DNA from: an uncultured bacterium
GTDB lineage: Bacteria; Arandabacterota; Arandabacteria; Arandabacterales; Arandabacteraceae
DNA: 64,000 nucleotides
Direction of reading: 5' to 3'
Assembly (NCBI GenBank): GCA_964356335.1
Contig: CAYHHI010000004.1
Span: 36,699 to 100,698, forward strand
Shown here: one piece after another, positions 38,952-56,900 of the stretch
How the letters are laid out: every line of letters starts with the position of its first letter
Position numbering within the stretch: position 1 is the stretch's first letter
Program-made: the position numbers and the translations under genes
The notes under the pieces: model-generated
Database searches by the model: none
Told to the model about the DNA's origin: nothing
Seen by the model: only the letters and a program-made list of their open reading frames with translations

Positions 38952-38970
38952 GTGCGCTCCTTTCTCTAGG

Positions 38971-38976
38971 ATTATA
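38971..38976 (-). promoter_or_regulatory. -10 element (TATAAT) for the S8 protease gene
   Basis: On the minus strand it reads gtagTATAATcctagagAAAGGAGcgcacATG. The direct repeats lie upstream of it. Confidence 0.4.
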
Positions 38977-39003
38977 CTACGATTTCGGCCCGGGCTCAAG
39001 GCT

Positions 39004-39711: not shown

Positions 39712-40631
39712 GTCTTCGCTCCTTTGCTCTTCTTTCTGCAGATGCCGATTCCAAGAATCCTGCCGATGTTCGCCTTGCTGTCCAAATCGGGAATGATAGA
39801 GCCCCGTGAAGAGGTCATGATGGTTGTAACGCCCGGGCCATGACCCGAGAGCACGCAATCGGAATGAACCACGACTCCAATCGTGATAGCACCTCTCCTG
39901 TACATCCTCCCGAAAGTGTGGTCCGCGTCTTTAATGGCGACGACGTCTCCTAGATTGATGCCGCCGAGGCCCTCACGCTCAACCGTTCTCGGGTCCAGGA
40001 GCTGGATATCGTAATCTCCTGAGTGCGCATGAACCTTGCCTATGCCGGAACCCATCAGCGCCGACGGGATGATGTGGGAAACCCCGACCTCGATCTTGTT
40101 CTTCACAATGCTGACGTTCATCCGCGAGAGCACGTCAGGATCAAGATTCATGAGCTTGATATCGTCAAATCCCTCGATCGCGAGCCCGGTCCCGAAGGCC
40201 TTGATCAAGATATTATCGCCGATTGCAAGCTTCCCGAGGGTCTTATCGTCGAAATCCACCAGAACATGCTCAATCCCGCCGTGCTTGCCCGTCACAACAC
40301 CTCGTGAACCCTTGGCGTCCCCACTTATGACCAGGGCTCCGTTACCAATCGCGGCAAGTGTGTTCAGAGCTGCGTTGGCGCTTCTTGTGCCTTCCTTGGC
40401 CGACATGTTCTTGACGCTCACGCCAGGCTCGACATGATCAGCAACCCACCCACACGCGGGATGCCCGACCTTGATGTTATATGTTATGCCCCCTGTTCCC
40501 GGCAATATGACGGGATTTCCCGTGGAGCCGATCCTGTAGCCGGTCTCGGTCATGGTAGGACTTGCGACCTGCCCCGCGACTGAAAGCATGACGAGGTTCT
40601 GCCGATTGGTTCTAATCACTTGTTCGCCCAT
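39708..40631 (-). CDS. conserved hypothetical protein, glycine-rich beta-helix-like (possibly DUF4438-like, ~300 aa)
   Basis: It has repeated G-x-G-x-x-G-x-V units such as ISGDAKGSRGVVTGKHGGIEHVLVDF and GDNILIKAFGTGLAIEGF. It is wedged between the aminotransferase and the HD gene with 1-nt and 4-nt junctions. The ATG at 40631 is preferred over the TTG at 40652. Confidence 0.5.
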   Translation of the reverse strand: MGEQVIRTNRQNLVMLSVAGQVASPTMTETGYRIGSTGNPVILPGTGGITYNIKVGHPACGWVADHVEPGVSVKNMSAKEGTRSANAALNTLAAIGNGALVISGDAKGSRGVVTGKHGGIEHVLVDFDDKTLGKLAIGDNILIKAFGTGLAIEGFDDIKLMNLDPDVLSRMNVSIVKNKIEVGVSHIIPSALMGSGIGKVHAHSGDYDIQLLDPRTVEREGLGGINLGDVVAIKDADHTFGRMYRRGAITIGVVVHSDCVLSGHGPGVTTIMTSSRGSIIPDLDSKANIGRILGIGICRKKSKGAKT

Positions 40632-40632
40632 G

Positions 40633-41967
40633 CTATGCTCGCCCCTTTTCAACTTTAAGTACCGCCCTCTGGAACATGTCGAGGGCCATGTCGGCTTCCC
40701 GCCTGCCGATAACCAGCGGTGGGATGAATCTTAGGGAGGATGGCCCACAGGGAAGAATCAGAAGGCCAAGCGAGAAGCATGTGTCAACAATCTTGGTTCT
40801 CATCTCGGGGGCCGGCTTCATTGTCGCCCTATCCGCGACGATCTCCATGCCGATCATCAAGCCCTTCCCGCTGAGTCGCCCTATCGCCCGGCTCTTCTTC
40901 TGGATCGCCCTAAGGCGCTTCATGAGATAATCGCCCATTGCGGCCGCATTTTCAACTAAACCATTTTCGAGAAGTCTTATGGTCTCAAGACTGGCCGAGC
41001 AGGACACGGGATTCCCACCGAAGGTACTGCCATGGGCTCCGGGCTCCCACGTCATCAAACTCGCAGGAGCAATCATTGCTCCCAGCGGCAGCCCTGAAGC
41101 CACTGCCTTGGCAACGGTGATGATATCCGGGACGACATTCCAGTGCTCGATGGCGAACATCTTGCCGGTCCTGCCGAGGCCCGACTGGATCTCATCGCAG
41201 ACGAAGAGGATGCCGTATTTCTCTGCGAGCGTCTTGAGTTTGGGGTGAAACTCCGGCGGCGGCACAACGTATCCACCCTCACCTTGAATCGGCTCAACAA
41301 AGATCGCTGCAACTTCATCGGGCGGCAGAGTGCGTTTGAAGAGCGTGTCTTCAATGAACGAGACACACGCGATATCACACTTGCCATACTTGAGATTGTA
41401 TGCGCAATGCGCGCAGTCGCCGTAGGGCACGTGGACCACTCCCGGCATCAAGGGGCTAAAGCGGGCGCGCTGGCTCTCCTTGCTGGCCGTGAGCGCCATC
41501 GCCCCCATGGTTCTTCCGTGGAAGGCGCCAAAGAAAGATATGAAATACTGCCTGCGCGTGGCGTGCCTGGCGAGCTTTATGGCAGCCTCGATCGCCTCTG
41601 CACCCGAATTGCAGAAGAAGACCTTCTTGGGTTTCCTGCCCGGCGCGATCGATGCGAGCTTCTTAGCAAGCATTATCTCCGTCTCGTAGTAGAAATCCGA
41701 GCCCGACATGTGCAGGAATTTTCTTGCCTGCTCCTCTATCGCTCTGACCACCTGGGGATGACTGTGTCCGGTGCAGGTCACCGAGATGCCGGAGGTGAAA
41801 TCAAGAAACGCATTACCATCCACATCCCATACGTACGCGCCCTTGCCATGATCCATAATGAAGGGATAGCCCCGCGTGTACGAAGGGGAAATGTACTTCT
41901 TGTCGAGCTCAAGAAGCTTCTTGGCGCGCGCGCCTACACGTGATATACCCATCCTCTGTCTGACCAC
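40633..41967 (-). CDS. class-III pyridoxal-phosphate aminotransferase (second copy in window)
   Basis: It has DEIQSGLGRTGKMFAIEHW and TVAKAVASG (PLP-Lys). It uses a GTG start with AGGA 6 nt upstream. Confidence 0.85.
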   Translation of the reverse strand: MVRQRMGISRVGARAKKLLELDKKYISPSYTRGYPFIMDHGKGAYVWDVDGNAFLDFTSGISVTCTGHSHPQVVRAIEEQARKFLHMSGSDFYYETEIMLAKKLASIAPGRKPKKVFFCNSGAEAIEAAIKLARHATRRQYFISFFGAFHGRTMGAMALTASKESQRARFSPLMPGVVHVPYGDCAHCAYNLKYGKCDIACVSFIEDTLFKRTLPPDEVAAIFVEPIQGEGGYVVPPPEFHPKLKTLAEKYGILFVCDEIQSGLGRTGKMFAIEHWNVVPDIITVAKAVASGLPLGAMIAPASLMTWEPGAHGSTFGGNPVSCSASLETIRLLENGLVENAAAMGDYLMKRLRAIQKKSRAIGRLSGKGLMIGMEIVADRATMKPAPEMRTKIVDTCFSLGLLILPCGPSSLRFIPPLVIGRREADMALDMFQRAVLKVEKGRA

Positions 41968-42053: not shown

Positions 42054-43538
42054 TTATCTTACTACAACAAACCTTCCCGTCCTGCTGCTTCCCCCGGCGT
42101 CGACCCTGTAAATGTATATCCCGCTTACCACCTGCTTACCGTCACTGTCCCTGAGGTTCCAATCAGCTGAGCCCTTCTGCGTTTCGTTGTCGATATTGAA
42201 GCCGGGCCTGACCGTATCTATGTAACCTCCGGATGCATCATATATCCTTATGGTTGCCTTTTCGGGTACATTCACGAACTGCAGCTTGGCCTCCCCCTGC
42301 TCCCAGCCAGCCCTGAAACGATAAGGATTGGGAACCACAAAGACATCGTCGACTGTTCGACCCTTCGGAGAGGCGGTCGGATACACCTCAGTCCAGTTTA
42401 TCGGACTCATGATGAGTTCATAACCGCTAGACCAATCGTAGGTCACGACAGCGTAATCATAAGGGAAGCCATTGAGCAACACATAGGCACTTGGGTCAGG
42501 CGTGACGCCACGCCCGCTGGCCCTTATGCCCTTGTCAATGAAGTACCTCTCACCGCCAGGATCCTGCTTGCCGAATGAATCTGCAAAGAATCCGGGATCC
42601 TCACAGCGCCTCTTATCCACAGCCACCTTATACTGGCCCACGGGATCGCTGGACGTGGGGGGCCTATCTTCAACAGACCGGCGCAGAACCAGATACCCTT
42701 CAAAGGTGGAGGCCTTGATCTTGAATGCATCGGCCGGAGGATTGTCGCCTGGGCCCGCCTTCCCGAAGGGTATCCTGACATCGACCGAAAAACTCCGACC
42801 TACCTGGAACTGCCCCGCCGGGAAGGAGACCCTCAGCCCCTTGCTCACCCCGACGCTCTGGCCCGACCGCTCGACCACGATCGAACTATCTTCACCAAGA
42901 CTGGCTGCCGACCAGCTGAGAGTGATCGCGGCATTTCCTTCGGGGCCGAGCTCGCCCCCAGAGACACACGTGAACTCAAGGACCACTACTGTGTCCGCGA
43001 GTCTCCCACCTCTGTATATGCCGTCAAAAGTGGGAATGGGACAATCCTGCCAACCTTCGGGATGAAACCTGAATAGGCTGTAAGAAGGGATTGATATCTT
43101 TATGCCGTCTGAAAGGTCATAGTCATGATCGGTCGAATCCACCGTGATTGTCTTTTCGCTTTGGGACTTAGTATTCCAGTCACTCACGTACAACCAGGAA
43201 AGAAGCACCCGATCGGGAGTGGAACTCACGGTGATATTGTAGTCATGATCACAGGCTCCAACATAAAAGCTTTCATCGCTCACGGTTATAGTCGCTTTGC
43301 CTCTCCACGGGGTCTCACGTGTACCCAGCGACGGCTGGTAAACAAAAACCAGGCTTTCAGGCTGAAGATCCTTCCACTGAATCTTCACTATCCTGCCGTC
43401 GCTACGGGTGGTATCGCCTTCAGTGATATTCACAATGTGTGGCGCTTTGAGAGTGATGCCTGCCCCACAGACGCTAACGCAGAGAAGTAAGCACCCAAAC
43501 CAAAGTGCATAGACAAAACGCCTCCCGCCCTTCTGCAT
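42054..43538 (-). CDS. secreted hypothetical protein with C-terminal T9SS-type sorting domain
   Basis: Its signal peptide is MQKGGRRFVYALWFGCLLLCVSVCGAG, from the ATG at 43538 with GGAGG upstream. Its C-terminus is VVPNPYRF...IRIYDASGGYID...SGIYIYRVDAGGSSRTGRFVVVR. Confidence 0.6.
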   Translation of the reverse strand: MQKGGRRFVYALWFGCLLLCVSVCGAGITLKAPHIVNITEGDTTRSDGRIVKIQWKDLQPESLVFVYQPSLGTRETPWRGKATITVSDESFYVGACDHDYNITVSSTPDRVLLSWLYVSDWNTKSQSEKTITVDSTDHDYDLSDGIKISIPSYSLFRFHPEGWQDCPIPTFDGIYRGGRLADTVVVLEFTCVSGGELGPEGNAAITLSWSAASLGEDSSIVVERSGQSVGVSKGLRVSFPAGQFQVGRSFSVDVRIPFGKAGPGDNPPADAFKIKASTFEGYLVLRRSVEDRPPTSSDPVGQYKVAVDKRRCEDPGFFADSFGKQDPGGERYFIDKGIRASGRGVTPDPSAYVLLNGFPYDYAVVTYDWSSGYELIMSPINWTEVYPTASPKGRTVDDVFVVPNPYRFRAGWEQGEAKLQFVNVPEKATIRIYDASGGYIDTVRPGFNIDNETQKGSADWNLRDSDGKQVVSGIYIYRVDAGGSSRTGRFVVVR

Positions 43539-43578
43539 ACATACCTCCAGCCATAGAAACGCGATGTATTTCCTGAGA

Positions 43579-45837
43579 CTAGAAAGCCCTGGGCTTCCCT
43601 TCATCGAATAATTCCAAGAGATTCCGTATCAGAGTCTTGACCTCGTCGTGGTTGAAGAACCACGGAGGGATTCCGATATAGGCTGCATACCCCCGCCCCG
43701 TCTTGCTATCGCCAGGAACATACACTCCAATCCACTTACCCTGCAACCTCATGCCAGAGGGGGTCATGATCTCCCTCCCGCACTCTGGATCTCCTATGCG
43801 CTGCCCCTTATCATTGACCGGTACAACCGAGTAAATCGGACGGACATCGATACTGTCATCGTATCTAAGCTCTGTTATGTAAAAAGCATTGTCAACTCTG
43901 CCCGGCCAGCCGGCGACACCAGGAATCCGATCTGTTGTGACGGGATCCCAGTACTGCGTTGTGTCATCCAGAGGCTTCGCTGTATACTTAGTTGTACACG
44001 GGTACATGGTCTTGAAGCTAACCCTGGGATTGCCGATCAACATCTTCGCTATTCCGAACGTCTCCCAGTTGAAGTTGTAGATCAAGGTTGAGTCAACGGG
44101 GTTCACCCTCGGGGTGAAATCCAAGCTGGTCTGGGAACCTCTGGTTCCGCGAGGAGGCGTCTTGTCGGGCCAGAACATGCAGGAGTAAATCGGATCCAGA
44201 CCTATCACGATTATATTCCCGCCAACCTTGACGTAGGAATTGAGGTAATTGCCCCTGTTGAAGCAAACCTCGGTGAGATGAATATCTGGGCTCTCTGTAT
44301 CTTGATCAGCAAGCCAGATCACGGTTGAGGCATCCGCCACCCGCCTGATCGGCACCTCGTTCTTGTAATCGCTGCCCGTATCAAACTCCTGCCAATTGTA
44401 ACCCTTGAGGATATCGGCCCACAGGCTGTCACTGGCTCGTTCATAGTAGAGGTAGGGGTTTCCCAGCCACTTGGCATGATCGTCGTCAACAAGATAAATG
44501 AACTTCTCCTTGCCTCGAGGGCCTTTGAGCACCTCCAAGCGAAACTCACAATGGCTTGTATCTCTATTCAGGTCTCTGAGCTCGACAACAAAGTTGTGAG
44601 TACCAAGACTGGGAATAAACGGTTTGCCGTCCGAGGGATATCTCACGAGCCACTCGACACCTGTTGTCCTTTCCCTGAGAGGGTCGACACTGGTCCAGTA
44701 GTTCCATGTTGACGTTGCGGGATCTTCAGAATCGTCGAAGTAATAACGACATGCAGCCACCAGTTTCCCCTGGCTCCGATCCTCAGACCCCCAGAACTTG
44801 AACGATACGGGCGTACCCTCAAACAACCCGGCAACATTGCTCAAATACCCTTGCCTGTCGTCGCTCGACCTCACCCCCAATGCGCCTGCATCAATGTTGG
44901 TGGTGACACCCGCACCCTGAGTGATGACGAGCAACCTGACCCAATTATTGTCGCTGTTATAAGTTCCATAAAGAGACTTGGGCAGCACAGCACCACCCTC
45001 GTCCTTACAGGTGACAAACGCCATCACCTTCTCTCCCTTAACTGCATAGGTAGAGAGATTGAGGTCCTTCACGTACGTGCAGTCTGCCGGAACCCACTCA
45101 CTCCAATAACTGACTGCAGGCGCCGCATAGGGCTTGTGCCTAGGGTCGGTGTCGACCACGTCGAGACTGTCTAACCGCGACGCAGTCCCGGGAGGTGTCG
45201 GCCATTTGCCGCCGGGCAATTCCTTCTCAGGAATGAGAATATACTTGAAAAGCATCTTCGAAACATCGCCATCCGAGTCCTCTCCACGCCACTCGATATA
45301 AACGTGAGGAGGAGAGAGACAGGGGACAGTCGGTATCTTCACTGGAATCGTTATCTTTGCCTTAGGAAGCACATTGGACGCCTGAAAGAAAACACTGGCT
45401 CCTGCAGAATCCACTGCCCCATCATTGTCAAGAGCCCTGACGATTATGCCCCAGTAGGAGAGGCCAAATCTGACAGTACCCACAGAAGAACAGCACGAAT
45501 CGGCCGTAACCACAAAAGTGCTTTCGGTTCTTGCAGTCTCAGCCCACTCGAGCTTATCGCGATCAAGATTATCAAGCGCTTCCCTGCTCAGGCCCTTGAC
45601 AGTCGCCACTTCATACCTTGCAATGGTCCCGTCCTCATCCGTACCGTACCAGTATGCTTGAACCTTGAAATAGGTCCTTGCTTCCTCCTTCGGCCCGAAA
45701 GAGATGAAGGTGTGCGGGGGGATATTGGTTACTCTTGTTCCGCCAGCCTTTTCGCCGCAGCCGCAGAACAAGAGTGCGAGACAGCATAATGCAATCCAGA
45801 CGATGCCAGCCGAGCCCGTGTACTTCCTGGTACTCAT
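43579..45837 (-). CDS. large lipoprotein, hypothetical (mosaic; shares its N-terminal repeat domain with the next gene and a central domain with the 1105-aa protein)
   Basis: It has a signal plus Cys-rich lipobox-like LLFCGCG. It has repeated PxxxFxWxGxDxDGxVxxYxY units. The segment FIYLVDDDHAKW...DASTVIWLADQD...GGNIIVIGLD parallels LLVDGHGRNLYDW...DYDAVVWFTGP...SGCVVLCGD in 47623..50940. Its ATG overlaps the upstream stop (ATGA). Confidence 0.6.
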   Translation of the reverse strand: MSTRKYTGSAGIVWIALCCLALLFCGCGEKAGGTRVTNIPPHTFISFGPKEEARTYFKVQAYWYGTDEDGTIARYEVATVKGLSREALDNLDRDKLEWAETARTESTFVVTADSCCSSVGTVRFGLSYWGIIVRALDNDGAVDSAGASVFFQASNVLPKAKITIPVKIPTVPCLSPPHVYIEWRGEDSDGDVSKMLFKYILIPEKELPGGKWPTPPGTASRLDSLDVVDTDPRHKPYAAPAVSYWSEWVPADCTYVKDLNLSTYAVKGEKVMAFVTCKDEGGAVLPKSLYGTYNSDNNWVRLLVITQGAGVTTNIDAGALGVRSSDDRQGYLSNVAGLFEGTPVSFKFWGSEDRSQGKLVAACRYYFDDSEDPATSTWNYWTSVDPLRERTTGVEWLVRYPSDGKPFIPSLGTHNFVVELRDLNRDTSHCEFRLEVLKGPRGKEKFIYLVDDDHAKWLGNPYLYYERASDSLWADILKGYNWQEFDTGSDYKNEVPIRRVADASTVIWLADQDTESPDIHLTEVCFNRGNYLNSYVKVGGNIIVIGLDPIYSCMFWPDKTPPRGTRGSQTSLDFTPRVNPVDSTLIYNFNWETFGIAKMLIGNPRVSFKTMYPCTTKYTAKPLDDTTQYWDPVTTDRIPGVAGWPGRVDNAFYITELRYDDSIDVRPIYSVVPVNDKGQRIGDPECGREIMTPSGMRLQGKWIGVYVPGDSKTGRGYAAYIGIPPWFFNHDEVKTLIRNLLELFDEGKPRAF

Positions 45838-47405
45838 CTTCCGCCTCCCGACGAGTTTGTACTCGAAACAAACACAGAATCACGCATTGAGTCAGACCTG
45901 GTCAACAAGTAGTCGCCGTTATACGCCTCGAGCTTGAACCTGTGCCACCCCGACGCAAGTCCTTCAACCTCAACCCCCGGCACGTACAAACCCTGCCTGT
46001 CCTTAGCAGTCACCTGTATCCAGGGACCATCATCAACTTTGTATCGGTATGTGACAAGGGCTTGCTCGCCACTGCTTCCCCGGTTGATATCCTGATCCAC
46101 GTCACGACATTTCCAGTCGAACTTCACCTTTCCTGGGCCAATGACCATGAGGGTATCCCAGGTTATCACCGGCGCATAGTTCACCTTGAAGGTGAAGAGA
46201 GCAGGAGTGCCGTCCACCTTACCCAAGTCGTCCCTTGCTCTCACCAGCAGGGCTAGCTCGTAATCTGTATCAAGATTGGGGTTGTTCTGGCCTGTGGCAG
46301 TTACGTCACAGAAGGCTGTGTCGCACGGCGTCCCTACCCAAGGCTGCTTCGGGTCGGCACCAGATTGGATCAGAGTGCCTCGGATGCTCCATCTAAACGA
46401 GTCTGGACGTGCCCCATCTTTATCCCAGCCATGGAACCTGAACCGTAACTGGCCGAAGTGGTACGCGACCGCGGTCGTGTCGCTCGGGTAGATCTGCTTC
46501 TCGGCAAGAGGAATGCCGCCCTGACCACTTTGACCTGACCCCCTGAATGTCCAAACGCCATCGATATATGTGTTGGGATCATAGTTTACGACAAACCTTG
46601 CGATCTTCTCATCACTCTTTGCACCGGCATCGTCCACGGCGACCAGCCTGAACTCATGGAAACCCAGCCAGACATCGCTGCTTTCGATTATGCAAGGCCA
46701 ATACCTGTACTCCGTGCTGTGGGTCTCAAAGGGGACTGTGACCTCATTGCCCGAGTCAAGCCGATATCTCCATTCTTGTACGGATCCATCAGGGTCGCGT
46801 CCTTGCCAATCAAATCTTACCACTATCGGCGGAGTGGTCATATCGCAAGGACCGGGATACCTGAGGTTGATCGCAGGAATCGTGTCGCCTTTATCCGGAG
46901 GGACGCGAGGAATAGTATCGATGCTGCTTGATATGAGAACTTGGATCTCGGGAAGAGCGTAGTCAATAGCCATGAAGTTGGTCGCTGCGGGCTTCGGATC
47001 TGCCTTGCCCTCGTTATCGACGGCAGCAACGTATAGGCTGTGACTTCTCGAATTGGGCCTGTCAGCTCGAAACACAAAGAGGCTCTCTGTAGCGTCCGTG
47101 GTTCTCCAGGGAAGACTCAAGAGATACTGGTCAATGTCCTCCTGGTTCCTGAGCCCACTGTATAGCTCATCCTCAGATACTGATGCCACCCTGTATGCCA
47201 CAACCACACCGTCTTCATCGTATCCCGTCCAGTGCACGAGGTACTTATGGAAAACCTTGTCGTCCATGCCCGGCGCAACCGAAAGTACGGTCTCGGGAGC
47301 AGTATTCTTGTCATATCTTGTGACGTTCTCCTCCTCGCAACCGACGAGGCCTATGAGGCCCAGCGCCACTGCAAAACCCACGAGGAGGCTCCTTCTTGTC
47401 ACCAT
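45834..47405 (-). CDS. lipoprotein with four tandem WxGxDxDG beta-sandwich-like repeats
   Basis: It has lipobox LVGC. The ATG at 47405 has GAGGAG 7 nt upstream. Its repeats include HWTGYDEDGVVVAYRV, FDWQGRDPDGSVQEWRYRL, FRFHGWDKDGARPDSFRWSI and FDWKCRDVDQD...YRYKV. Confidence 0.6.
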   Translation of the reverse strand: MVTRRSLLVGFAVALGLIGLVGCEEENVTRYDKNTAPETVLSVAPGMDDKVFHKYLVHWTGYDEDGVVVAYRVASVSEDELYSGLRNQEDIDQYLLSLPWRTTDATESLFVFRADRPNSRSHSLYVAAVDNEGKADPKPAATNFMAIDYALPEIQVLISSSIDTIPRVPPDKGDTIPAINLRYPGPCDMTTPPIVVRFDWQGRDPDGSVQEWRYRLDSGNEVTVPFETHSTEYRYWPCIIESSDVWLGFHEFRLVAVDDAGAKSDEKIARFVVNYDPNTYIDGVWTFRGSGQSGQGGIPLAEKQIYPSDTTAVAYHFGQLRFRFHGWDKDGARPDSFRWSIRGTLIQSGADPKQPWVGTPCDTAFCDVTATGQNNPNLDTDYELALLVRARDDLGKVDGTPALFTFKVNYAPVITWDTLMVIGPGKVKFDWKCRDVDQDINRGSSGEQALVTYRYKVDDGPWIQVTAKDRQGLYVPGVEVEGLASGWHRFKLEAYNGDYLLTRSDSMRDSVFVSSTNSSGGGR

Positions 47406-47558
47406 AAGCACACTCCTCAATCCTGCGTGATTAAGTTCCTTGCGTCTAAGGAATTTGTGTCTATGCTACAGCATAGCTGGCCCCACGATAAGACACAGCC
47501 GAGAAACTATAACAACGCATTCCTGCCTTGTCAACACCAAAACTGGTCAAGCCTGGGC

Positions 47559-47597
47559 AATAAAGAACCGGGGCTTCCACTGGTATGAAAGCCCCGG
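47559..47597 (-). terminator. intrinsic terminator downstream of the 1105-aa surface protein gene
   Basis: The minus strand reads GGGGCTTTCATACCAGTGGAAGCCCCGG with a 9-bp stem, followed by TTCTTTATT. It lies about 30 nt after the stop at 47623. Confidence 0.45.
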
Positions 47598-47622
47598 CCT
47601 CAATGCCTTGTAGGGTCTACTT

Positions 47623-50600
47623 CTACTTCACAACCAACATCTTCTTCACGGCTGAATACTTATCAGCTTCCATCTTGTAGAAGTACACTCCACTCGATAC
47701 ACGCTCGCCAACCTGGTTCTTTCCGTCCCAGGCTACCGAGTGCTTACCAGCCTTCATCTGCTCATCCTTCAGTACCTGCACCAACTGCCCCATCGCGTTA
47801 TAGACCTTGATGGAAACCTTGCTGGCACTGGCGACCTCAAAGTCTATCTTGGTCCCAGTCGACAGCGGGTTTGGTCCGTTCTGCCTGAGTCCCCAGACAT
47901 ACGCAACAGGACTGGTGGGACCCGGCACATTGGCCATCGCATTCGGAACGATACCAAAGAGGTTGTAAAGGATGGTCCTTAGCAACTCGACGCGGCCAAA
48001 GTAGTAACCTGGCGCGAAGTCAGGTGCTGGAGCAGGAGTCACTCCAGTGCACAAAGTCCTCGCGTGGTTGACTGTGGCGCACAGGTCGAAGTTGACATAC
48101 ACGCACCGTCCCTTGCCATTCTGGTACTCAGTGTAGATCGCTCCATCAGCGAGAGGAACCCCGATGGGATTGGTTACCCGGAGAAACTGCTGTGCCGTGT
48201 AGCCGGGCTTCGGGCTCGGGCTGGTCAGAACGTAGCTCATGTCCTTCAGATACGGACACTCCCTGTAAATCACGACCGTATCCAACGCCGTCGTAGGAAT
48301 GTTCACGGCTGAACCCCTCACGTTGACCGTAGCCGCCGCATCCATGTAAACAAACGGCAAGGTAAACCCTGCTTCCATCTCCTTCAGGTAGTCGGTCCCC
48401 ATGATGCCGTTCAAGAACTCGCCGCCAAGCGAATCCTCGCCATTGCCACCCTCAGCCTGAGTCGCCATATCGTAGGCCAGCCTGTCACCGCACAGCACCA
48501 CACACCCACTGTCCGCAAGATAAGCCCTCAGGGCTAACTGGGCTTCCTTGTCAAACAGGTAGTTGGAGAAGTACGGCCCAGTGAACCACACAACAGCATC
48601 ATAATCCGAGAACGTAATCGGATGTATGTGCTGGTTCGAACCGGCACCACTGATGTCGAACTTGTCGTAGTAGCAATACCCGGCATCAGCCAGCGTCCTC
48701 TCGTAGATGTCCTCGAGAGGCATCGTGTTGTCAAGGTCGGTCAAGCAAGGCGACCAGTCATAGAGATTCCTGCCATGTCCATCAACAAGCAGAATCTTCT
48801 GACCCTCGCCGACCCCCGGGGCAACTATCGGGAGGATTGAGAACCCCCAATAATCGTCCTTCGTCCAATTGTGGGCCGAGTTCTTCGGATCCGCTCTGGC
48901 TGGGAAGTACGCCTGGTTACCCAGGTTGTCCTGAGCCAGGACATAATACAGGATCTCGCTGCCGACCGTCCATGCTATAGCACCAGGACTGAAGTCACCT
49001 GCCTGGACAGTCCCATAGTACTCGCCACCAAGAGCAAGGTTCAACGGATCAGCGGGCACCGCCAGAGTCATTGTCTTCTCAATCCAGGTAGCGCCATTGG
49101 TGATGCTAGCCTTGATCTTGACGGATGCCAGATTGTTCTTGTCCGTGCAGTTGATGTAGAGCTGCTGCCCCTTGGGAAGTATCGGCGCCGGGGGAGAAGC
49201 TCCCGAGTACTTGTTCAGCGTGTCGGTCTCATAGGTATCAAAGAACGAGTTGTACGCCTGAGCTACCTGTGGGAAGAACGTATCGTGGAGAATGTCAATC
49301 CCACGAGCGCTGAACTGGGTTGCCGTGCCATCGAAGAAGCCGATGGAAACGTTGTCAATCAGGTTCTCGGTGTCCTTGTGCTTGCCATAGCACATGTCAC
49401 CAGGGTTGGAGGTATCCAGCAGATCAAATCCAAACTGCATGGAGTCGTTGTTTGCCCCGTAGAACTGGGTGACATTATCCCAGTCATCGAAGTTCCAGAA
49501 GAAACAGCCGCCATACATGATGTACCCGTCGATGTTGATCCATGGACACCATGTCTGGTTGACCTTGTCGTAGAACCTCACCTGGGTATCCGTGTAGTCG
49601 CAGGTGATGTCCTTGCCGCACATGAACTCGTCATACTGGACTATACAGCCCGTGTTGGCAAGCTTGACCTTGGGCGTAAGGAGCCTGTAGAAGAAGCCCT
49701 GCCTCTGGGGTGAGCCAGGAGGGAAGGCATTCTCAGGTCTCGCGCGCCAGACCCACGAGGAGTCCAACAGACAGGTCGTGCGGGCGCCCCCATCACCACC
49801 CTCATAGGGCGGATCAGGGTCATGCACCAAGTGCCATCCCTGCGCTACACCAGAAGGCTGCTGGAGACTCCAGTACTGGGGAAGCGCTCCGAAAACACTG
49901 CAGAGCTCGAAGTCCTGAGTGTACGCGCTGCCCGCATCACCAACCATCCACACGTTGTCAACAAAGGCAGCTCCGTCGGTATCGCCTCTGCCATCCATGT
50001 CACTCCACGCTCCGTCAGACTTGAATCTGAATCTGATCTTCGGCGCGTTGGTGACCGTGCCCCACATGGCAGGAGTGATCACTCCCATGTAGGCCGGAAT
50101 GCCAGGAGTCCCCCTCTGCTGCCAGTTGCAGTTGGCAAGCCTGTTCACATCCGTGTTGCCCCAGTTGTCAGGATTCGGCTTCGAGGGAGCACCACAGACA
50201 CCGCCCGGGTTGTTGCTCGTCGCGTTGAACATGGCGAGCGTGACCCACGCGGTGGTGGCAGGCGGACCTGCTACACCCTGCTGGTAGTCCACATAGAGGT
50301 AATCGTACTTGCACTCGGTATCGTACCTGGGATCGAAGTACAGTGTACAGCCCCCCGCCACGTTAAACGACGACGGCAGGTCGAGCTCCACAATGCAGTT
50401 CCACTGGTTACCATAACCAGGCGGATTGATCCAGGTACCGCACTCGACAGGCTTACCGGGCGGCGCGCCCCAAACCGCGGCCGAACCGCACCACAGTGCG
50501 CGGGTACCCGTATAGCCCCCGGGCGCCGGCACAGTGCGGTAGCTGTCGACGTGCCAATAGTTGACATTGGTCTGCGAAGGCAGACTACGAATATCAACGT

Positions 50601-50940
50601 ACTTGAAGCAGTTGGTGATGAACGGTGCTACTGTTCCGCATGTATCACCGACTCCTCCCTCCACGCACCAGGTCTGGGTAGGACCGGGCCCACCCGTCGC
50701 CTCACCACCGTGTCCTCCAAGCGGATCGCCAGGGCAGCGGGTACTATTAGCATGTACCTCTACCCATGTCGTATTTCCCGCCTGGACCATCACGAATGGC
50801 ATGGCTAAGGGCATCCCTCCCACCGCGTTAGCGGGCGGCAGAAGCGGCTTTGCCGGTTCCTGCATACCTAGTGCAACGGAGGCGAGCCCCATTACAAGGA
50901 CCCCCACTGCCACGATAGATACTGCTCTAAATCTCATCAT
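47623..50940 (-). CDS. very large secreted protein with a ThuA/class-I-glutamine-amidotransferase-like central domain and C-terminal T9SS-type sorting domain
   Basis: Its signal peptide is MMRFRAVSIVAVGVLVMGLASVALG, from the ATG at 50940 with GGAGGG upstream. Its central segment is GQKILLVDGHGRNLYDW...DYDAVVWFTGP...ADSGCVVLCGDRLAY. Its C-terminus is SGVYFYKMEADKYSAVKKMLVVK. Confidence 0.65.
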   Translation of the reverse strand: MMRFRAVSIVAVGVLVMGLASVALGMQEPAKPLLPPANAVGGMPLAMPFVMVQAGNTTWVEVHANSTRCPGDPLGGHGGEATGGPGPTQTWCVEGGVGDTCGTVAPFITNCFKYVDIRSLPSQTNVNYWHVDSYRTVPAPGGYTGTRALWCGSAAVWGAPPGKPVECGTWINPPGYGNQWNCIVELDLPSSFNVAGGCTLYFDPRYDTECKYDYLYVDYQQGVAGPPATTAWVTLAMFNATSNNPGGVCGAPSKPNPDNWGNTDVNRLANCNWQQRGTPGIPAYMGVITPAMWGTVTNAPKIRFRFKSDGAWSDMDGRGDTDGAAFVDNVWMVGDAGSAYTQDFELCSVFGALPQYWSLQQPSGVAQGWHLVHDPDPPYEGGDGGARTTCLLDSSWVWRARPENAFPPGSPQRQGFFYRLLTPKVKLANTGCIVQYDEFMCGKDITCDYTDTQVRFYDKVNQTWCPWINIDGYIMYGGCFFWNFDDWDNVTQFYGANNDSMQFGFDLLDTSNPGDMCYGKHKDTENLIDNVSIGFFDGTATQFSARGIDILHDTFFPQVAQAYNSFFDTYETDTLNKYSGASPPAPILPKGQQLYINCTDKNNLASVKIKASITNGATWIEKTMTLAVPADPLNLALGGEYYGTVQAGDFSPGAIAWTVGSEILYYVLAQDNLGNQAYFPARADPKNSAHNWTKDDYWGFSILPIVAPGVGEGQKILLVDGHGRNLYDWSPCLTDLDNTMPLEDIYERTLADAGYCYYDKFDISGAGSNQHIHPITFSDYDAVVWFTGPYFSNYLFDKEAQLALRAYLADSGCVVLCGDRLAYDMATQAEGGNGEDSLGGEFLNGIMGTDYLKEMEAGFTLPFVYMDAAATVNVRGSAVNIPTTALDTVVIYRECPYLKDMSYVLTSPSPKPGYTAQQFLRVTNPIGVPLADGAIYTEYQNGKGRCVYVNFDLCATVNHARTLCTGVTPAPAPDFAPGYYFGRVELLRTILYNLFGIVPNAMANVPGPTSPVAYVWGLRQNGPNPLSTGTKIDFEVASASKVSIKVYNAMGQLVQVLKDEQMKAGKHSVAWDGKNQVGERVSSGVYFYKMEADKYSAVKKMLVVK

Positions 50941-51165
50941 GGTCCAAACCCTCCGATGCGAAACTCGTTGCTGGCCAGTCTCCTGACTGACCATAGTACC
51001 CAAAGGGAAATCACTTGTTGTCGGACAGGTTCTTTCCCCACGCGGCAAACGGAAAATCGGAGGTACTTAAATCACTACAGCGTGTCTCCGTCTCACCCCC
51101 TTCCTTCAGCGAAGATCGCTGCAACCTTCAATCCACAATTGACACAATCACCCTACATCCGCCTA

Positions 51166-51195
51166 TATTATACCAAACTGGTGTGCCAAGTGTCA
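51166..51195 (-). promoter_or_regulatory. consensus sigma-70-type promoter TTGACA-N18-TATAAT
   Basis: On the minus strand, TTGACA lies at 51195-51190 and TATAAT at 51171-51166, with an 18-nt spacer. It is oriented toward the 1105-aa gene and lies about 225 nt upstream of its ATG, which implies a long 5' leader. Confidence 0.5.
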
Positions 51196-51340
51196 AGACG
51201 GTTTGTGCTTGCAGGGGGACACCCGGGTTCAGCGCGTACACTTCAAAGATGAGTAGATTATGAGATCGGGGCATGCGAGAGGGCGATTTCGGCCAGGAGT
51301 GTGCCCATTGAAGAGCAATCAGCCGCGAAGCCTCTTTGCT

Positions 51341-53287
51341 CTATTTTATGAAGCGCGAAAGGTCCGCAACCCAGATCTCATAGTCGTCTGGTACGGCTCC
51401 GCCGCGGCAGACCGAAATCGAAGCCACAAGCTTTGGAGGCTGACCCGGAAACCAGCCGACACGCTCGGGAATCCGCCAGCATTCGACATCGTCTCCGGCC
51501 TGACCCGGCAAGCCAATCACAATTGATTGCGCCTCACCGGTCCCGGCGAGAACCCCGGATACGTCACAGATGACGATCTCTCTCGAAATGTCCTGGCCCC
51601 TTATGAATGCAACATAATTGCCGTCAGGACTGAGAGCAGGCTCTGAGATGGGCAGGCTGCTAGTGGTAACCAGATACATCTTGTCGCCATCAACAGATGC
51701 CTCATTTCCAAGGTCCACCAGCCAGATGCCGTTGGTTGCACCCGCCGTCAGACTGCGGCTGGGCGCTAGCCGGGCACTCAAAGTCGAGGAGCGATGATTC
51801 GGTTCCGCTTGTCGGCTCCTCGCCGGCACGCCGGTACAATCCAGTGACACATAGGTGGTTTCACCGGGACGCACAGCGACAAAGGCTGTGTCGCTGCAAC
51901 GCGTCTTATTGACATCGGGGTTAGCAGCAAAAACAAAGTGCATGCCCGGAACCTGGCATTCTGTGAAGATGTAATCTGTGGACGAGGCCGGGGTGGGAGC
52001 ATCCAGCCAGCGACCATCGAGATTCACTAGCTTGCCCCCAGGATTCGAGCTCAGCCCCACAAGCCCGCACCTACAATCCAATGTCACATAAGTGGTCTCC
52101 CCGGCACGCACCGTGACATCGAGCGTGTCGCTACAGCGCTTCCCATCACTGACGTTTGCAGCAAAAGCAGTGTGAATGCCCGGAAGCAAGCATTTGAGCA
52201 GAATATACTCCGTGGACAAGTCCGGGGTACGCACACTCTGCAGGCGGCCGTCGAAGTAAACCAGCCTGACCCCGGGATTTGAGCTCAGCCCCACCGCCCC
52301 GCGTTCTTGCACAAAGTCAAGAACGATGGTGTTGAGCACATCGGGCTCCGGTATGATGCTGTCATACGGTTGAGTGCAATATTCAGGAAGTACTCCTCTT
52401 ACTTCAATCTTAGCCACTCCAGCCGGCCTGTATCTGAACGTATAGGGCGTGGTCTTGCCGGAATCCTTGGCATTCAAGAAAATCTCCGCGGATGCATCCG
52501 TCGTATCAGAATCCTGGCCAGGAGGGCCTACGACCTTACGGGCTGTGACCCTGATGTCGCCGACCTTGACCCTGTCAGGGGAGGCAAACGCAATCAGGCT
52601 GGTACCATTTCCCGCAGGTTGCTCATCCTTGAAAATGGCGCTGAGCACTCCATTCTCATCCTTGGCAAAGTCCGCCGGCTCACGGGAGATCCGCGTAAGA
52701 CGGTCACCCTGCGGATAACGCTTGACAAAGATATCAAAATTGACTCCGCCCACGGAGGAATTGCTGAACGCGATCCAGGTAGTATCGCCGATAACTGCCC
52801 AAGTCGGGCTCCAGCTCGAGTTAGGCAGGGACGCACGATCGGTCAATCGTTCAAGAGTACGAGCAGTCGCCGGCAATTCGAGATCGGTCACATCGACGAC
52901 GAATATGTCCGACTTGTCAAGGGAGCGTCTTTCAAACGCAATCCTAGTGCCATCAGGTGACCAGACAGGTTTGAAATCATCATAGGCATCGCATGTGATC
53001 TGATAGAACGTCGAATTGTCGCCTTCCTCTTCCGGCAACATAGCGACCCAGATGTGGTAAGATCCTTCGCAGATGCTTGTGTCGGTCTCCGGTGAAGTAA
53101 ATGCCACAAGCCTGGGATCAACGGGAGAAACGGCGGGAAAACGGCCGACCCTTCCGAATGCTTTCTGCCAGAAATCGCAATTGAGGCATTTGGGGCCAGC
53201 GCTCTTATCCTCTCCGCACGAGGTCAGAAGTAAGACCGAAAGCCCTATTACGAGTATGAGAATTGTGACCTTACGGGTGTTGCCCAA
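51341..53287 (-). CDS. TolB-like beta-propeller lipoprotein with an internal tandem duplication of a ~79-aa Cys-containing domain
   Basis: It has lipobox LLTSC. Its PD40-type blades include KPVWSPDGTRIAFERR, WSPTWAVIGDTTWIAFSNS and ALSPDGNYVAFIRG. It has two adjacent homologous units that each end CSDTxxVxVRxGETTYVxLDC. Confidence 0.7.
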   Translation of the reverse strand: MGNTRKVTILILVIGLSVLLLTSCGEDKSAGPKCLNCDFWQKAFGRVGRFPAVSPVDPRLVAFTSPETDTSICEGSYHIWVAMLPEEEGDNSTFYQITCDAYDDFKPVWSPDGTRIAFERRSLDKSDIFVVDVTDLELPATARTLERLTDRASLPNSSWSPTWAVIGDTTWIAFSNSSVGGVNFDIFVKRYPQGDRLTRISREPADFAKDENGVLSAIFKDEQPAGNGTSLIAFASPDRVKVGDIRVTARKVVGPPGQDSDTTDASAEIFLNAKDSGKTTPYTFRYRPAGVAKIEVRGVLPEYCTQPYDSIIPEPDVLNTIVLDFVQERGAVGLSSNPGVRLVYFDGRLQSVRTPDLSTEYILLKCLLPGIHTAFAANVSDGKRCSDTLDVTVRAGETTYVTLDCRCGLVGLSSNPGGKLVNLDGRWLDAPTPASSTDYIFTECQVPGMHFVFAANPDVNKTRCSDTAFVAVRPGETTYVSLDCTGVPARSRQAEPNHRSSTLSARLAPSRSLTAGATNGIWLVDLGNEASVDGDKMYLVTTSSLPISEPALSPDGNYVAFIRGQDISREIVICDVSGVLAGTGEAQSIVIGLPGQAGDDVECWRIPERVGWFPGQPPKLVASISVCRGGAVPDDYEIWVADLSRFIK

Positions 53288-53457: not shown

Positions 53458-55413
53458 ATGACCCGCAAACTCACTCTATCGGCGCTCTTTGCGTGGGTTG
53501 CACTAGTCGCGATAGCATTCGGTTTCTATCAGTTTGCAGGCCTTGTCAGAGCAAACCCATTCGGAGATTGCTTCGCCTCTGCTCTCAAGGTCCTGGCGGT
53601 GATGTTGGTGGCGGCCTCCATGGGACTCCGCCTAATCCCGGGCGCAAAGCCCTGTCTCAGAGACATCATGCTGGCCTCGGCGGTGGGACTTGCCCTGCTG
53701 GGAATCGCCACCTTCTTGCTCGGGACTGTTGGGCTGGTGAGACCCTACGTAATTTGGCCGGCCGTTGCCATGGTGGGGGCGATCTCGTACAGGCAGATCG
53801 GGCAGATGCTGGCGTGGCTCAGGCGGCTCGCGGTGCCGTCGCTTGATGTGTACGAGATGTGTTTCGCCGGCCTCATGGTTTTTGCGTCGCTTTTCGTGCT
53901 TGCGAACTGTCTCGCACCCATAACCGCAAACGATGCGCTCGTATATCACCTCAATCTCCCCAAGCTCTATGCGGCTGCCTCCGGTCTGGTGAGGCTGCCA
54001 TATAATGTATATGCCAACATGCCTCATTACGGCGAGGTGCTGTACACTCTCTTTTACTCGCTGGCGGGAGAGACCGGAGCCAGGATCTTCTACTTCCTGG
54101 TCGTCATGGGTGCCACGCTTTCCATCTATGTTCTGGCAAAGAGGTTCGCCCCTCGCAGGCTGGCTATGGCCGCAGCGGGCTTTTTCCTCGTGCAGCCTCT
54201 GGTACTTGATGACCGGATCATCTGCAATGTTGACATCCTGCTTGGATACCTTTATGTCTCCTCCGTCATTCTGCTCGTCGATCCACCGGGATTGAAGGCG
54301 AATCTCAGACAGATCCTGCCCGTCGCAGTTCTCGCAGGCTTCATGCTTGGGATCAAATACACGGCCATTGCCCCATGTCTATCGCTCCTGGTCATCCCCT
54401 TGGTCGGTTCCCCCAAGCGCCCCCGTCCGAGGAGATTTGTCATCGCAGGCCTGGTGGCCTTGGCTCTTTTTGCCCCCTGGCTCATAAAGAACCAGGTATA
54501 TGTCGGGAATCCCTTCTATCCTCTGGTTGAAAGCAAGCTTGACGGCTCAAACTGGGACGCGACCCAGGAGGCACAGCTCCTGAGTTGGCAGCGGGGCATG
54601 GGAATGGGCAGAACAGCCCTGAATTATCTTCTTCTGCCTTTCAATATAAGCACGAGGGGCAGGCCCGCAGCCAATTACACCAGGTTTGATGGCATCATGA
54701 CGCCGCTTTTCCTCATCCTGTTTCCGCTCGCTCTCCTCAGACGTCGAAAGGAAACCACTGCGCTAATCGTGATGGTACTGGCGACCTTCGTTTTCTGGGC
54801 ACTCACATCACAGCAGCTGCGTTTCCTCATTCCCACGATAGCCCTTGCAGCGGTGCTCGCGGCAGCCGGCCTCGCCAACCTGGCGGGCCTCGCCGGCGTA
54901 AGGCCGTCGAACTTTGTGCTCGGTCTTGCTATTCTTGTCACGGGCTCCACAATTGTCCTGCCCGATCAATTCGGGAGGCCCTTTGTGACAATCCCTATCA
55001 GCGCCACATCGCGGGTCGTGTTTGGCCTTGAACCCAGGCAACAGTACCTCGAAAGGAATTTTCAGGCGTTCAGCATGTGCGAGTACATCCGCACTAGCCT
55101 GCCTCCCCGCGAACCCATCTTCATGGTCTGGGAGAACCGCGGCTACTACCTTGACAACCCCTATTTTGCCGACAGCTTCTATGAGGCCTCAACCCTCATG
55201 CAAATCGTGGCGAGATCTCGGGACGCCGACGACCTCAAACAGATCATACGAGGGATGGGCTTCAGGTACGTTCTTGTCAATGAAATGCTGGGCGATGTCT
55301 TCTCGAGATTCTATCCGCCGGCAGAGGTCGCCAAGCTCAGGGAATTTATGAAGAACGATCTTGAAGCCGTTCATTCCGCAGCCAAGATCACGCTTTACAG
55401 GATCGCGCCTTAG
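53458..55413 (+). CDS. polytopic membrane protein, GT-C-like (ArnT/PMT-family-like) putative glycosyltransferase
   Basis: It has at least 12 TM segments. Its first loop has ANDALVYHLNLPKLY. Its C-terminal soluble domain ends ITLYRIAP, as in the 13474..15309 protein. AGGGAGAGG SD lies upstream. Confidence 0.5.
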   Translation: MTRKLTLSALFAWVALVAIAFGFYQFAGLVRANPFGDCFASALKVLAVMLVAASMGLRLIPGAKPCLRDIMLASAVGLALLGIATFLLGTVGLVRPYVIWPAVAMVGAISYRQIGQMLAWLRRLAVPSLDVYEMCFAGLMVFASLFVLANCLAPITANDALVYHLNLPKLYAAASGLVRLPYNVYANMPHYGEVLYTLFYSLAGETGARIFYFLVVMGATLSIYVLAKRFAPRRLAMAAAGFFLVQPLVLDDRIICNVDILLGYLYVSSVILLVDPPGLKANLRQILPVAVLAGFMLGIKYTAIAPCLSLLVIPLVGSPKRPRPRRFVIAGLVALALFAPWLIKNQVYVGNPFYPLVESKLDGSNWDATQEAQLLSWQRGMGMGRTALNYLLLPFNISTRGRPAANYTRFDGIMTPLFLILFPLALLRRRKETTALIVMVLATFVFWALTSQQLRFLIPTIALAAVLAAAGLANLAGLAGVRPSNFVLGLAILVTGSTIVLPDQFGRPFVTIPISATSRVVFGLEPRQQYLERNFQAFSMCEYIRTSLPPREPIFMVWENRGYYLDNPYFADSFYEASTLMQIVARSRDADDLKQIIRGMGFRYVLVNEMLGDVFSRFYPPAEVAKLREFMKNDLEAVHSAAKITLYRIAP

Positions 55414-55466
55414 GGCACGGGCTCTGCCACACCAGTGGTTCCTGAGTGCTGGGGTCGCTCACAGTT

Positions 55467-56798: not shown

Positions 56799-56900
56799 TG
56801 GATTTGTTGCCACCTGGCTTGTTGCCACTGGCCTTGCTCCCATCGGCCTTCCTGCGCCCATGACACCACGTATCAACACCGGGTTCTTCTGCGAATCGAC

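What the first reader, a model, noticed from the sequence alone, without database searches (positions are those of the whole stretch)
42054..50940. Mosaic cluster of four large surface proteins with shared domains and a possibly inactivated paralogue
There are three overlapping minus-strand genes (494 aa, 752 aa, 523 aa) and a separately transcribed 1105-aa gene. The 752-aa lipoprotein shares its N-terminal WxGxDxDG repeat domain with its upstream neighbour. It shares a central ThuA/GATase1-like segment with the 1105-aa protein. The His-Gly and Cys positions (GHG, LCGD) of the large protein are replaced in the 752-aa copy (DDDH, IGLD), suggesting a catalytically dead partner. None of the four has an assignable function. 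Two carry T9SS CTDs and two are lipoproteins. This is a candidate novel cell-surface complex.
Basis: partly seen in the sequence, partly recalled or inferred. Interest (0 to 1): 0.65.

Follow-up and report, generated by a model that had tools for sequence, protein, structure and literature searches.

The report
Conserved Eisenbacteria envelope-protein gene cluster
This is a real, conserved cluster of four uncharacterised secreted or lipid-anchored proteins in an uncultured Eisenbacteria-type bacterium; two of them share a ThuA-like domain, but the proposed "active enzyme plus dead copy" pair is not supported and the function is still unknown.

Summary
The four minus-strand genes exist as described: A 494 aa, B 752 aa, C 523 aa, D 1105 aa. 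D has its own strong promoter and terminator. C, B and A form an operon.

- **Secretion signals:** B and C are lipoproteins. A and D carry type-A T9SS C-terminal domains.
- **B and C:** they share N-terminal Ig-like "WxGxDxDG" modules (hhalign E=1e-32).
- **Catalytic claim refuted:** within D's own family the "GHG" His is usually Tyr, and the "LCGD" Cys is present in only about 60% of members. No Cys/His pair exists to be lost.
- **Conservation:** the order GT-C glycosyltransferase, PD40 lipoprotein, D, C, B, A is kept in every sufficiently long Eisenbacteria-type contig examined, down to 24-29% identity.
- **Paralogy:** D and B also have paralogues elsewhere in these genomes without the partner genes.

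The best reading is a lineage-specific envelope module that probably handles glycans. A physical complex and surface exposure are untested. Interest is modest.

The parts
47623..50940 (-). Gene D, 1105 aa. It has a signal peptide, a Cys-rich beta-rich N-terminal region, an Ig-like module, a ThuA-like domain and a T9SS type-A C-terminal domain. It is transcribed alone.
   Evidence: ORF. GGAGGG ribosome-binding site 9 nt before the ATG at 50940. Public gene call of 1105 aa. Family of at least 189 homologues at 47-68% identity. AlphaFold model pLDDT 76.8.
47953..48807 (-). D residues about 712-996: ThuA-like/GATase1-like alpha/beta domain.
47626..47883 (-). D residues about 1020-1105: T9SS type-A C-terminal sorting domain.
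   Evidence: TIGR04183 37.2 bits (cut-off 23). PF13860 E=4.6e-12, PF18962 E=1.2e-7.
49306..50775 (-). D residues about 56-545: beta-rich, Cys/Trp-rich region of unknown function. It is probably two jelly-roll-like domains. It has no HExxH motif.
51167..51196 (-). Sigma-70-type promoter upstream of D: TTGACA-18-TATAAT with an extended TG.
   Evidence: 12 of 12 match, located in the intergenic region.
47566..47599 (-). Intrinsic-terminator-like hairpin just after D's stop codon: 15-bp stem followed by a T-run.
47506..47534 (-). Promoter of the C-B-A operon: TTGACA-17-TATAGT with TG.
   Evidence: 11 of 12 match.
45834..47405 (-). Gene C, 523 aa. It is a lipoprotein (LVGC|EEEN) built from about four WxGxDxDG beta-sandwich modules.
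   Evidence: GAGGAG ribosome-binding site before the ATG at 47405. Motifs at residues 59, 200 and 324. 280 representative relatives at E<=1e-3. Alignment A4.
43579..45837 (-). Gene B, 752 aa. It is a lipoprotein with three Ig-like modules followed by a ThuA-like domain. Its start overlaps C's stop by 4 nt.
   Evidence: AlphaFold model pLDDT 85.7, pTM 0.76.
44527..45714 (-). B residues about 42-437: three beta-sandwich (Ig/FN3-like) modules. The first one and a half are homologous to C.
   Evidence: Secondary structure. Foldseek hits to tandem Ig/MG/FN3 proteins. hhalign against the C family E=1.2e-32.
43609..44499 (-). B residues about 447-743: ThuA-like/GATase1-like alpha/beta domain, a paralogue of the one in D.
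42054..43538 (-). Gene A, 494 aa. It has a signal peptide, an N-terminal region of about 390 aa of unknown fold, and a T9SS type-A C-terminal domain.
   Evidence: GGAGG ribosome-binding site 6 nt before the ATG at 43538. TIGR04183 25.4 bits. Family. Only the C-terminal domain is related to D. No relation to B.
51341..53287 (-). PD40/TolB-like beta-propeller lipoprotein, always found upstream of the cluster copy of D.
   Evidence: PF07676 E=2.7e-10. Conserved position in L001, L003, L008, L010-L012, L018, L029, L034, L036, L041 and L053.
53458..55413 (+). Divergently transcribed GT-C-type membrane glycosyltransferase (PMT_2/DUF8201), conserved next to the cluster.
   Evidence: PF13231 E=1.6e-9. 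Conserved in the same loci.

Best explanation
**Shown**
- This is a lineage-specific envelope gene cluster of Candidatus Eisenbacteria-type bacteria, with conserved gene order.
- Gene D is transcribed alone and encodes a large T9SS-type cargo protein.
- The downstream operon C-B-A encodes two lipoproteins built on Ig-like modules and a second T9SS-type cargo protein.
- B and D each carry a divergent domain from the ThuA-like branch of the class-I glutamine-amidotransferase fold. The two domains are distant paralogues.
- Neither domain has the Cys-His-Glu triad. Each keeps its own deeply conserved acidic residues at the C-terminal ends of strands 1-3 of the sheet.

**Inferred**
- These domains are not amidotransferases, and they are not an active/dead pair. 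They are more likely ligand-binding (probably glycan-binding) or oligomerisation modules. Many of their structural neighbours play that kind of role in carbohydrate-active enzymes and in OST48, IFT52 and GldG-type proteins.
- Together with the conserved PD40 lipoprotein and the GT-C glycosyltransferases upstream, the four proteins probably act on, or are part of, a glycosylated outer envelope layer.
- Under this reading the Ig-like stalks of B and C hold their functional domains away from the membrane, and A and D are delivered by the T9SS.
For: - **Gene models, signals and transcription units:**
- **B-C homology:**
- **B-D homology:**. The motifs line up in the same order in both families: LLVD[DG], [FY]D[TI][GS], [TA]V[IV]W, GG[NK]xxxxG.
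- **Deeply conserved residues:** D720, D752, D759, D762, W785, D819 and R820 in D; D451, D452, D486, W508, D511 and N541 in B. All persist in orthologues at 24-29% identity.
- **Cluster conservation:** the order GT, PD40, D, C, B, A is kept in L001, L003, L010, L011, L012, L018 and L029, and in the distant L008, L009 and L053, even though downstream genes differ.
- **Neighbourhood:** upstream genes are rich in GT-C and YfhO glycosyltransferases.
Against: - No experiment or interaction prediction was possible. Neither a complex nor surface exposure of B and C has been shown.
- The residues after the lipidated Cys (B: C-S-E-K; C: C-E-E-E) only loosely resemble the Bacteroidetes surface-export signal K-(D/E)2 (PMC5080379).
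- D is a multi-copy family, with 3-5 paralogues per genome and frequent tandem copies, most without C, B or A nearby. B paralogues also stand alone.
- Part of the conserved order could be plain synteny. The aminotransferase, DUF4438, HD, S8 and PPDK genes downstream are also conserved among the closer genomes.
- The N-terminal regions of A and D have no assignable fold family. The glycan idea rests only on structural neighbours and gene neighbours.
- Whether this organism has T9SS machinery was not checked.
Confidence: 0.5

Rival explanations
1. D's central domain is an active Cys/His enzyme, either GATase1-type or a clan-CD-like peptidase. B carries an inactivated copy that serves as a non-catalytic partner.
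For: In this window D has GHG and LCGD where B has DDDH and IGLD, and hhalign aligns those positions. The fold belongs to the class that includes Cys-His-Glu amidotransferases.
Against: - The His is Tyr in most D homologues and is His in only about 18 of 113.
- The Cys site is C in 62, A in 19, L in 18, I in 2 and S in 2.
- The distant orthologue has Tyr and Glu at these positions.
- The His sits after strand 1, which is not the GATase1 His position.
- The best structural matches are triad-less ThuA-like proteins.
- The gingipain-like sortase PorU matches only weakly, below the GATase1-like hits, and at sequence level only through its C-terminal domain.
Confidence: 0.03
2. The four are independent envelope proteins with no functional unit. 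They are unrelated adhesins or binding proteins that remain neighbours through slow genome rearrangement. The shared domains reflect a common phylum-wide toolkit of modules.
For: - D and B have several paralogues elsewhere without the partner genes.
- The WxGxDxDG module occurs in hundreds of other proteins, including giants of 1400-2100 aa.
- A ThuA-like domain followed by a T9SS C-terminal domain occurs in a Calditrichota M23-like protein.
- Wider synteny is also conserved in the closer genomes.
Against: - The order D-C-B-A with PD40 upstream survives to 24-29% identity, while the downstream genes change.
- C and B are translationally coupled by a 4-nt overlap, and A follows 40 nt later with no terminator detected between them.
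- Each genome with enough contiguous sequence has exactly one cluster-linked D.
Confidence: 0.3
3. The ThuA-like domains are enzymes with a non-canonical active site. One example would be a sugar-modifying activity that uses the invariant Asp/Arg at the nucleophile-elbow position of D. The cluster would then remodel a surface polysaccharide.
For: - D819 and R820, just after strand 4, are conserved in all 37 sequences (R820 in 35), including the distant orthologue.
- D720, D759 and D952 are also conserved.
- B keeps D451, D452, D486, D511 and R658.
- ThuA itself is linked to disaccharide catabolism (my own knowledge, not checked here).
- GT-C glycosyltransferases are encoded nearby.
Against: - No homology to any characterised enzyme was detected at sequence level.
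- B lacks a conserved residue at the elbow position (L547 and D548 vary).
- Many of the closest structural neighbours are non-catalytic accessory domains.
Confidence: 0.15
4. The cluster encodes lineage-specific T9SS accessory or attachment components. A and D would be analogues of PorU and PorZ, which also carry C-terminal sorting domains, and B and C would be the lipoprotein partners.
For: - A and D carry T9SS sorting domains whose best sequence matches to solved structures, apart from FlgD itself for D, are PorU and PorZ.
- The cluster is single-copy, strongly conserved and sits among housekeeping genes.
Against: - Similarity to PorU and PorZ is confined to the sorting domain.
- There is no peptidase motif or conserved Cys/His.
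- D-family paralogues are numerous, as expected for cargo rather than machinery.
Confidence: 0.04

Closest known systems
ThuA-like and 'GATase1-like' proteins of unknown or sugar-related function (PDB 1t0b, 4jqs, 4e5v, 3rht, 2gk3)
   Different: - Only 10-15% identity, and no Pfam ThuA or related model matches even at E<=10.
- Here the domain is extracytoplasmic. In B it is fused to a lipoprotein Ig-like stalk. In D it is fused to beta-rich domains and a T9SS sorting domain.
- The solved relatives are small single-domain proteins of about 240-280 residues.
Class-I glutamine amidotransferases (HisH, PdxT, GuaA glutaminase domains)
   Different: The nucleophile Cys and the His-Glu pair are absent or not conserved in either family. 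These proteins are exported, where a glutamine-dependent amidotransfer role is implausible.
Non-catalytic GATase1-like accessory domains: the GH42 trimerisation domain, the IFT52/GldG 'GIFT' domain, and the OST48/WBP1 N-terminal domain
   Different: No sequence relationship was detected. Oligomerisation or sugar binding by the B and D domains is inferred, not shown.
Bacteroidota surface systems that combine lipoproteins with T9SS cargo (Sus-like lipoprotein complexes; T9SS cargo with type-A sorting domains)
   Same: Lipobox lipoproteins and type-A sorting-domain proteins are encoded side by side. Ig-like stalk modules are present.
   Different: - There is no SusC/SusD pair or TonB-dependent transporter in the cluster.
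- The organism is an Eisenbacteria-type candidate lineage (record names). I take it to be a sister lineage of Bacteroidota in the FCB group, from my own knowledge.
- Its lipoprotein surface-export signal and T9SS machinery are unverified.

Membership tests
Class-I glutamine amidotransferase (catalytic) | GATase1 alpha/beta fold | tested here: met
   [not shown]
Class-I glutamine amidotransferase (catalytic) | Conserved nucleophile Cys on the elbow after strand 4 | tested here: not met
   D position 817 is C in 62, A in 19, L in 18, I in 2 and S in 2 homologues, and Glu in the distant orthologue. The aligned B position is Ile or Val.
Class-I glutamine amidotransferase (catalytic) | Conserved His-Glu pair after the last core strand | tested here: not met
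   The nearly invariant His residues (D H959, B H730) are replaced by Arg or Thr in the distant orthologues, and no adjacent conserved Glu is present.
ThuA family (Pfam PF06283) | Match to the family profile | tested here: not met
   No Pfam hit at E<=10 for either isolated domain.
ThuA family (Pfam PF06283) | ThuA-like three-dimensional fold | tested here: met
   [not shown]
T9SS type-A sorting-domain cargo | C-terminal domain matching TIGR04183/PF18962 above the cut-off | tested here: met
   D scores 37.2 bits and A scores 25.4 bits against a cut-off of 23. The A-D sorting domains align with hhalign probability 96%.
T9SS type-A sorting-domain cargo | T9SS machinery (SprA, PorV, PorK-N and others) encoded in the same genome | not tested
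   None is in the 64-kb window, and the rest of the genome was not examined. Three other peptidases with sorting domains lie in the window.
Bacterial lipoprotein | Signal peptide ending in a lipobox with a conserved +1 Cys | tested here: met
   B has L-x-G-C with invariant C27. C has L-V-G-C with C23 at least 90% conserved.
Surface-exposed lipoprotein (Bacteroidetes-type export signal) | K-(D/E)2 or Q-A-(D/E)2 directly after the lipidated Cys (PMC5080379) | tested here: inconclusive
   B has C-S-E-K and C has C-E-E-E (family consensus C-R-x-E). Both are acidic but do not match the consensus, and the signal has not been validated outside Bacteroidota.
Clan CD cysteine peptidase / PorU-type sortase | Conserved His-Gly ... 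Cys dyad | tested here: not met
   [not shown]
Immune inhibitor A (M6) metallopeptidase | HExxH zinc-binding motif and catalytic domain | tested here: not met
   [not shown]

The most novel reading that the evidence does not exclude
The unit GT-C glycosyltransferase, PD40 lipoprotein, D, C, B, A could be a previously unrecognised, phylum-specific outer-surface machine of Eisenbacteria. The paralogous ThuA-like domains of the lipid-anchored B and the T9SS-delivered D would pair with each other. Together with C and A they would build or remodel a glycosylated surface layer. That would be a new use of the GATase1 fold as an extracellular assembly module.
Probability: 0.12. Interest if true: 0.6.

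Novelty: new variant of a known kind. Interest (0 to 1): 0.3.

Why it matters
Candidatus Eisenbacteria has no cultured member, and nothing is known about its cell envelope. This cluster is one of its best-conserved sets of exported proteins. It defines several protein families that current domain libraries miss:
- two extracytoplasmic branches of the ThuA-like fold;
- a widespread WxGxDxDG Ig-like module;
- the N-terminal regions of A and D.

If the proteins work together, they would show how a sister lineage of Bacteroidota combines lipoproteins with T9SS cargo.

As it stands, the result is mainly a correction and an annotation gain. The pseudoenzyme story is wrong. The fold assignment and the cluster conservation are right.

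Tried and rejected
- **Domain libraries:** Pfam and NCBIfam scans of the full proteins and the isolated domains hit only the sorting domains.
- **Sequence search of solved structures:** profiles of the A, B and D families returned only FlgD, PorU and PorZ sorting-domain matches, or nothing.
- **BLASTP of B against D** found nothing. Only profile methods detect the relationship.
- **M6/InhA-like protease idea for D's N-terminus:** rejected. There is no HExxH motif and no profile similarity to the InhA-like MAM domain of the neighbouring M14 peptidase.
- **Clan-CD/PorU-like sortase idea:** rejected because the His and Cys are not conserved.
- **A's N-terminus against B or D:** no relationship.
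- **Rfam scan of the region**, including D's roughly 220-nt leader: nothing.
- **Literature:** searches for Eisenbacteria with T9SS found nothing, and searches on ThuA function gave nothing usable.
Full report
**What is there.** The region holds four minus-strand genes. Their lengths match the public gene calls for this contig: A 494 aa (42054-43538), B 752 aa (43579-45837), C 523 aa (45834-47405) and D 1105 aa (47623-50940). Ribosome-binding sites support the chosen starts of D, C and A: GGAGGG before D, GAGGAG before C and GGAGG before A.

A perfect TTGACA-18-TATAAT promoter with an extended TG lies upstream of D. A 15-bp hairpin with a T-run follows D's stop codon, and a TTGACA-17-TATAGT promoter precedes C. 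D is therefore its own transcription unit. C-B-A looks like an operon: C and B overlap by 4 nt, and B and A are 40 nt apart rather than overlapping.

B and C have lipoboxes with a conserved Cys. D and A match the T9SS type-A sorting domain above NCBIfam's cut-off. Nothing else in any of the four proteins matches Pfam or NCBIfam, even when the domains are scanned alone at E<=10.

**Shared domains.** B and C share their signal peptide, their first module and the start of the second. BLASTP gives E=4e-16, and family-profile comparison gives E=1.2e-32 with probability 99.9%. The modules carry the WxGxDxDG motif, twice in B and three times in C, plus degenerate copies. An exhaustive search found 280 representative relatives, including proteins of 1400-2100 aa with up to 19 repeats. 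The module is therefore widespread but not catalogued.

The E-value is 8.5e-4 for the full alignments and 1.6e-4 for the cropped domains. It falls to 2.3e-5 (probability 76%) after adding orthologues at about 24% identity. Mismatched domain pairs used as controls give E=0.09-0.29. A shares only its sorting domain with D and shares nothing with B.

**Structures.** The AlphaFold model of B (pLDDT 85.7, pTM 0.76) shows three beta-sandwich modules (residues 42-437) followed by an alpha/beta domain (447-743). The model of D (pLDDT 76.8) shows five parts:
- a beta-rich, Cys-rich N-terminal half;
- an Ig-like module;
- an alpha/beta domain (712-996, pLDDT about 85-95) with the same order of strands and helices as B's;
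- a low-confidence linker;
- the sorting domain.

Further down both lists are triad-containing amidotransferases. There are also many accessory domains of carbohydrate-active or assembly proteins: GH42, GH164, a fucosidase, Agd3, PelA, OST48/WBP1 and IFT52.

**The catalytic claim.** In the alignment of D homologues, the His of "GHG" is not conserved. LLVDGYG is the commonest form, and His occurs in about 18 of 113 sequences. The Cys of "LCGD" is C in 62, A in 19, L in 18, I in 2 and S in 2. The distant orthologue has Tyr and Glu at these positions. The His also lies after strand 1, which is not where a GATase1 His sits.

Different residues are conserved down to 24-29% identity:
- in D: D720, D752, D759, D762, W785, D819, R820 and D952;
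- in B: D451, D452, D486, W508, D511, N541 and R658.

Both domains look functional in their own way, most likely in binding. I could not check whether these residues form one pocket.

**Conservation and paralogy.** Homologues of all four proteins come from MAGs labelled Candidatus Eisenbacteria or simply "bacterium". The order GT-C glycosyltransferase (divergent), PD40 lipoprotein, D, C, B, A is intact in two loci fetched through B homologues (L001, L003). A scan of one genome per species found it intact in five contigs with enough flanking sequence, one of which is the same contig as L001. Seven truncated contigs are consistent with it. In total, six distinct contigs carry the complete order.

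The order also survives in a distant lineage. In L008 the D, C, B and A orthologues are 24-29% identical to the window proteins, and L009 carries C, B and A. The downstream genes there are different. One variant has an extra B copy upstream of C-B-A (L005).

D is also a multi-copy family. Each genome has 3-5 paralogues, often in tandem, and only one is linked to the cluster. B paralogues can stand alone. A ThuA-like region followed by a sorting domain also occurs behind an M23-like head in a Calditrichota protein.

**Context.** Upstream of the cluster lie further GT-C/PMT_2, YfhO-like and LPG-synthase-type membrane proteins and a phosphodiesterase. Elsewhere in the window are three peptidases with T9SS-type sorting domains.

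**Interpretation.** The anatomy, the homologies and the conservation are shown. The function is inferred. I favour an envelope module that handles glycans, in which the ThuA-like domains bind ligand or mediate assembly. This rests on the structural neighbours and on the glycosyltransferase-rich neighbourhood.

The main rival is that these are independent modular envelope proteins kept together by synteny. A non-canonical enzyme role for the ThuA-like domains cannot be excluded. A physical complex, surface exposure of the lipoproteins and the presence of T9SS machinery are all untested.

**Novelty.** The folds are known, but the families are not in Pfam or NCBIfam. The architectures are not ones I could find described: a lipoprotein Ig stalk fused to a ThuA-like domain, and beta-rich domains fused to a ThuA-like domain and a T9SS sorting domain. 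Literature searches for Eisenbacteria with T9SS returned nothing. I rate this a new variant of a known kind, of modest interest.

Noticed in passing
L010-L054 (genome scan); for example L013, L015, L020, L024, L027, L035: D-type proteins form a multi-copy family in Eisenbacteria-type MAGs. Each genome has 3-5 paralogues, several as head-to-tail tandem pairs. Only one copy per genome sits next to PD40 and C-B-A.
   Followed up: partly
L056 8768-11020 and 11035-13500 (Calditrichaeota MAG): A 750-aa protein has a weak M23-peptidase head. Its C-terminal region is 24-26% identical to D residues 775-1105, that is, the second half of the ThuA-like domain plus the sorting domain. Next to it is a GH18 chitinase-type protein with a sorting domain. 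This suggests the ThuA-like-plus-sorting-domain unit is a reusable cargo module in the FCB group.
   Followed up: partly
[not shown]
   Followed up: no
window 20858-23083, 26957-29461, 37245-38999 (all minus strand): Three further predicted T9SS-type cargo proteins lie in the same window. They are an M14 carboxypeptidase with an InhA-like MAM domain, a BNR/M28 peptidase and an S8 subtilase.
   Followed up: partly
window 53458-63419: A run of envelope-glycosylation-type membrane proteins lies upstream of the cluster: PMT_2, PMT_2 with TPR repeats, YfhO/DUF6044 and LPG_synthase_TM, plus a type-I phosphodiesterase. The first two genes are also conserved next to the cluster in other genomes.
   Followed up: partly
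window 51341-53287 (minus strand), protein residues about 330-480: The PD40 lipoprotein contains two tandem copies of a roughly 75-aa segment (GLSSNPG...GETTYV.LDC). One copy has a weak TIGR03000 match. It may be a PEGA-like insert between the propeller parts.
   Followed up: no
window 50941-51166 (minus strand): If the perfect promoter is used, D has a leader of about 220 nt. No Rfam family matches it.
   Followed up: partly
window 39169-41967 (minus strand) and L001, L003, L005: The trio aminotransferase class III, DUF4438 and HD-domain protein directly downstream of A is also conserved in the closer genomes. It is replaced by other genes in the distant ones.
   Followed up: partly
window 48871-49713 and 49822-50808 (plus strand): Long antisense ORFs of 280 and 328 aa lie inside gene D. 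They were not examined and are most likely artefacts of base composition.
   Followed up: no
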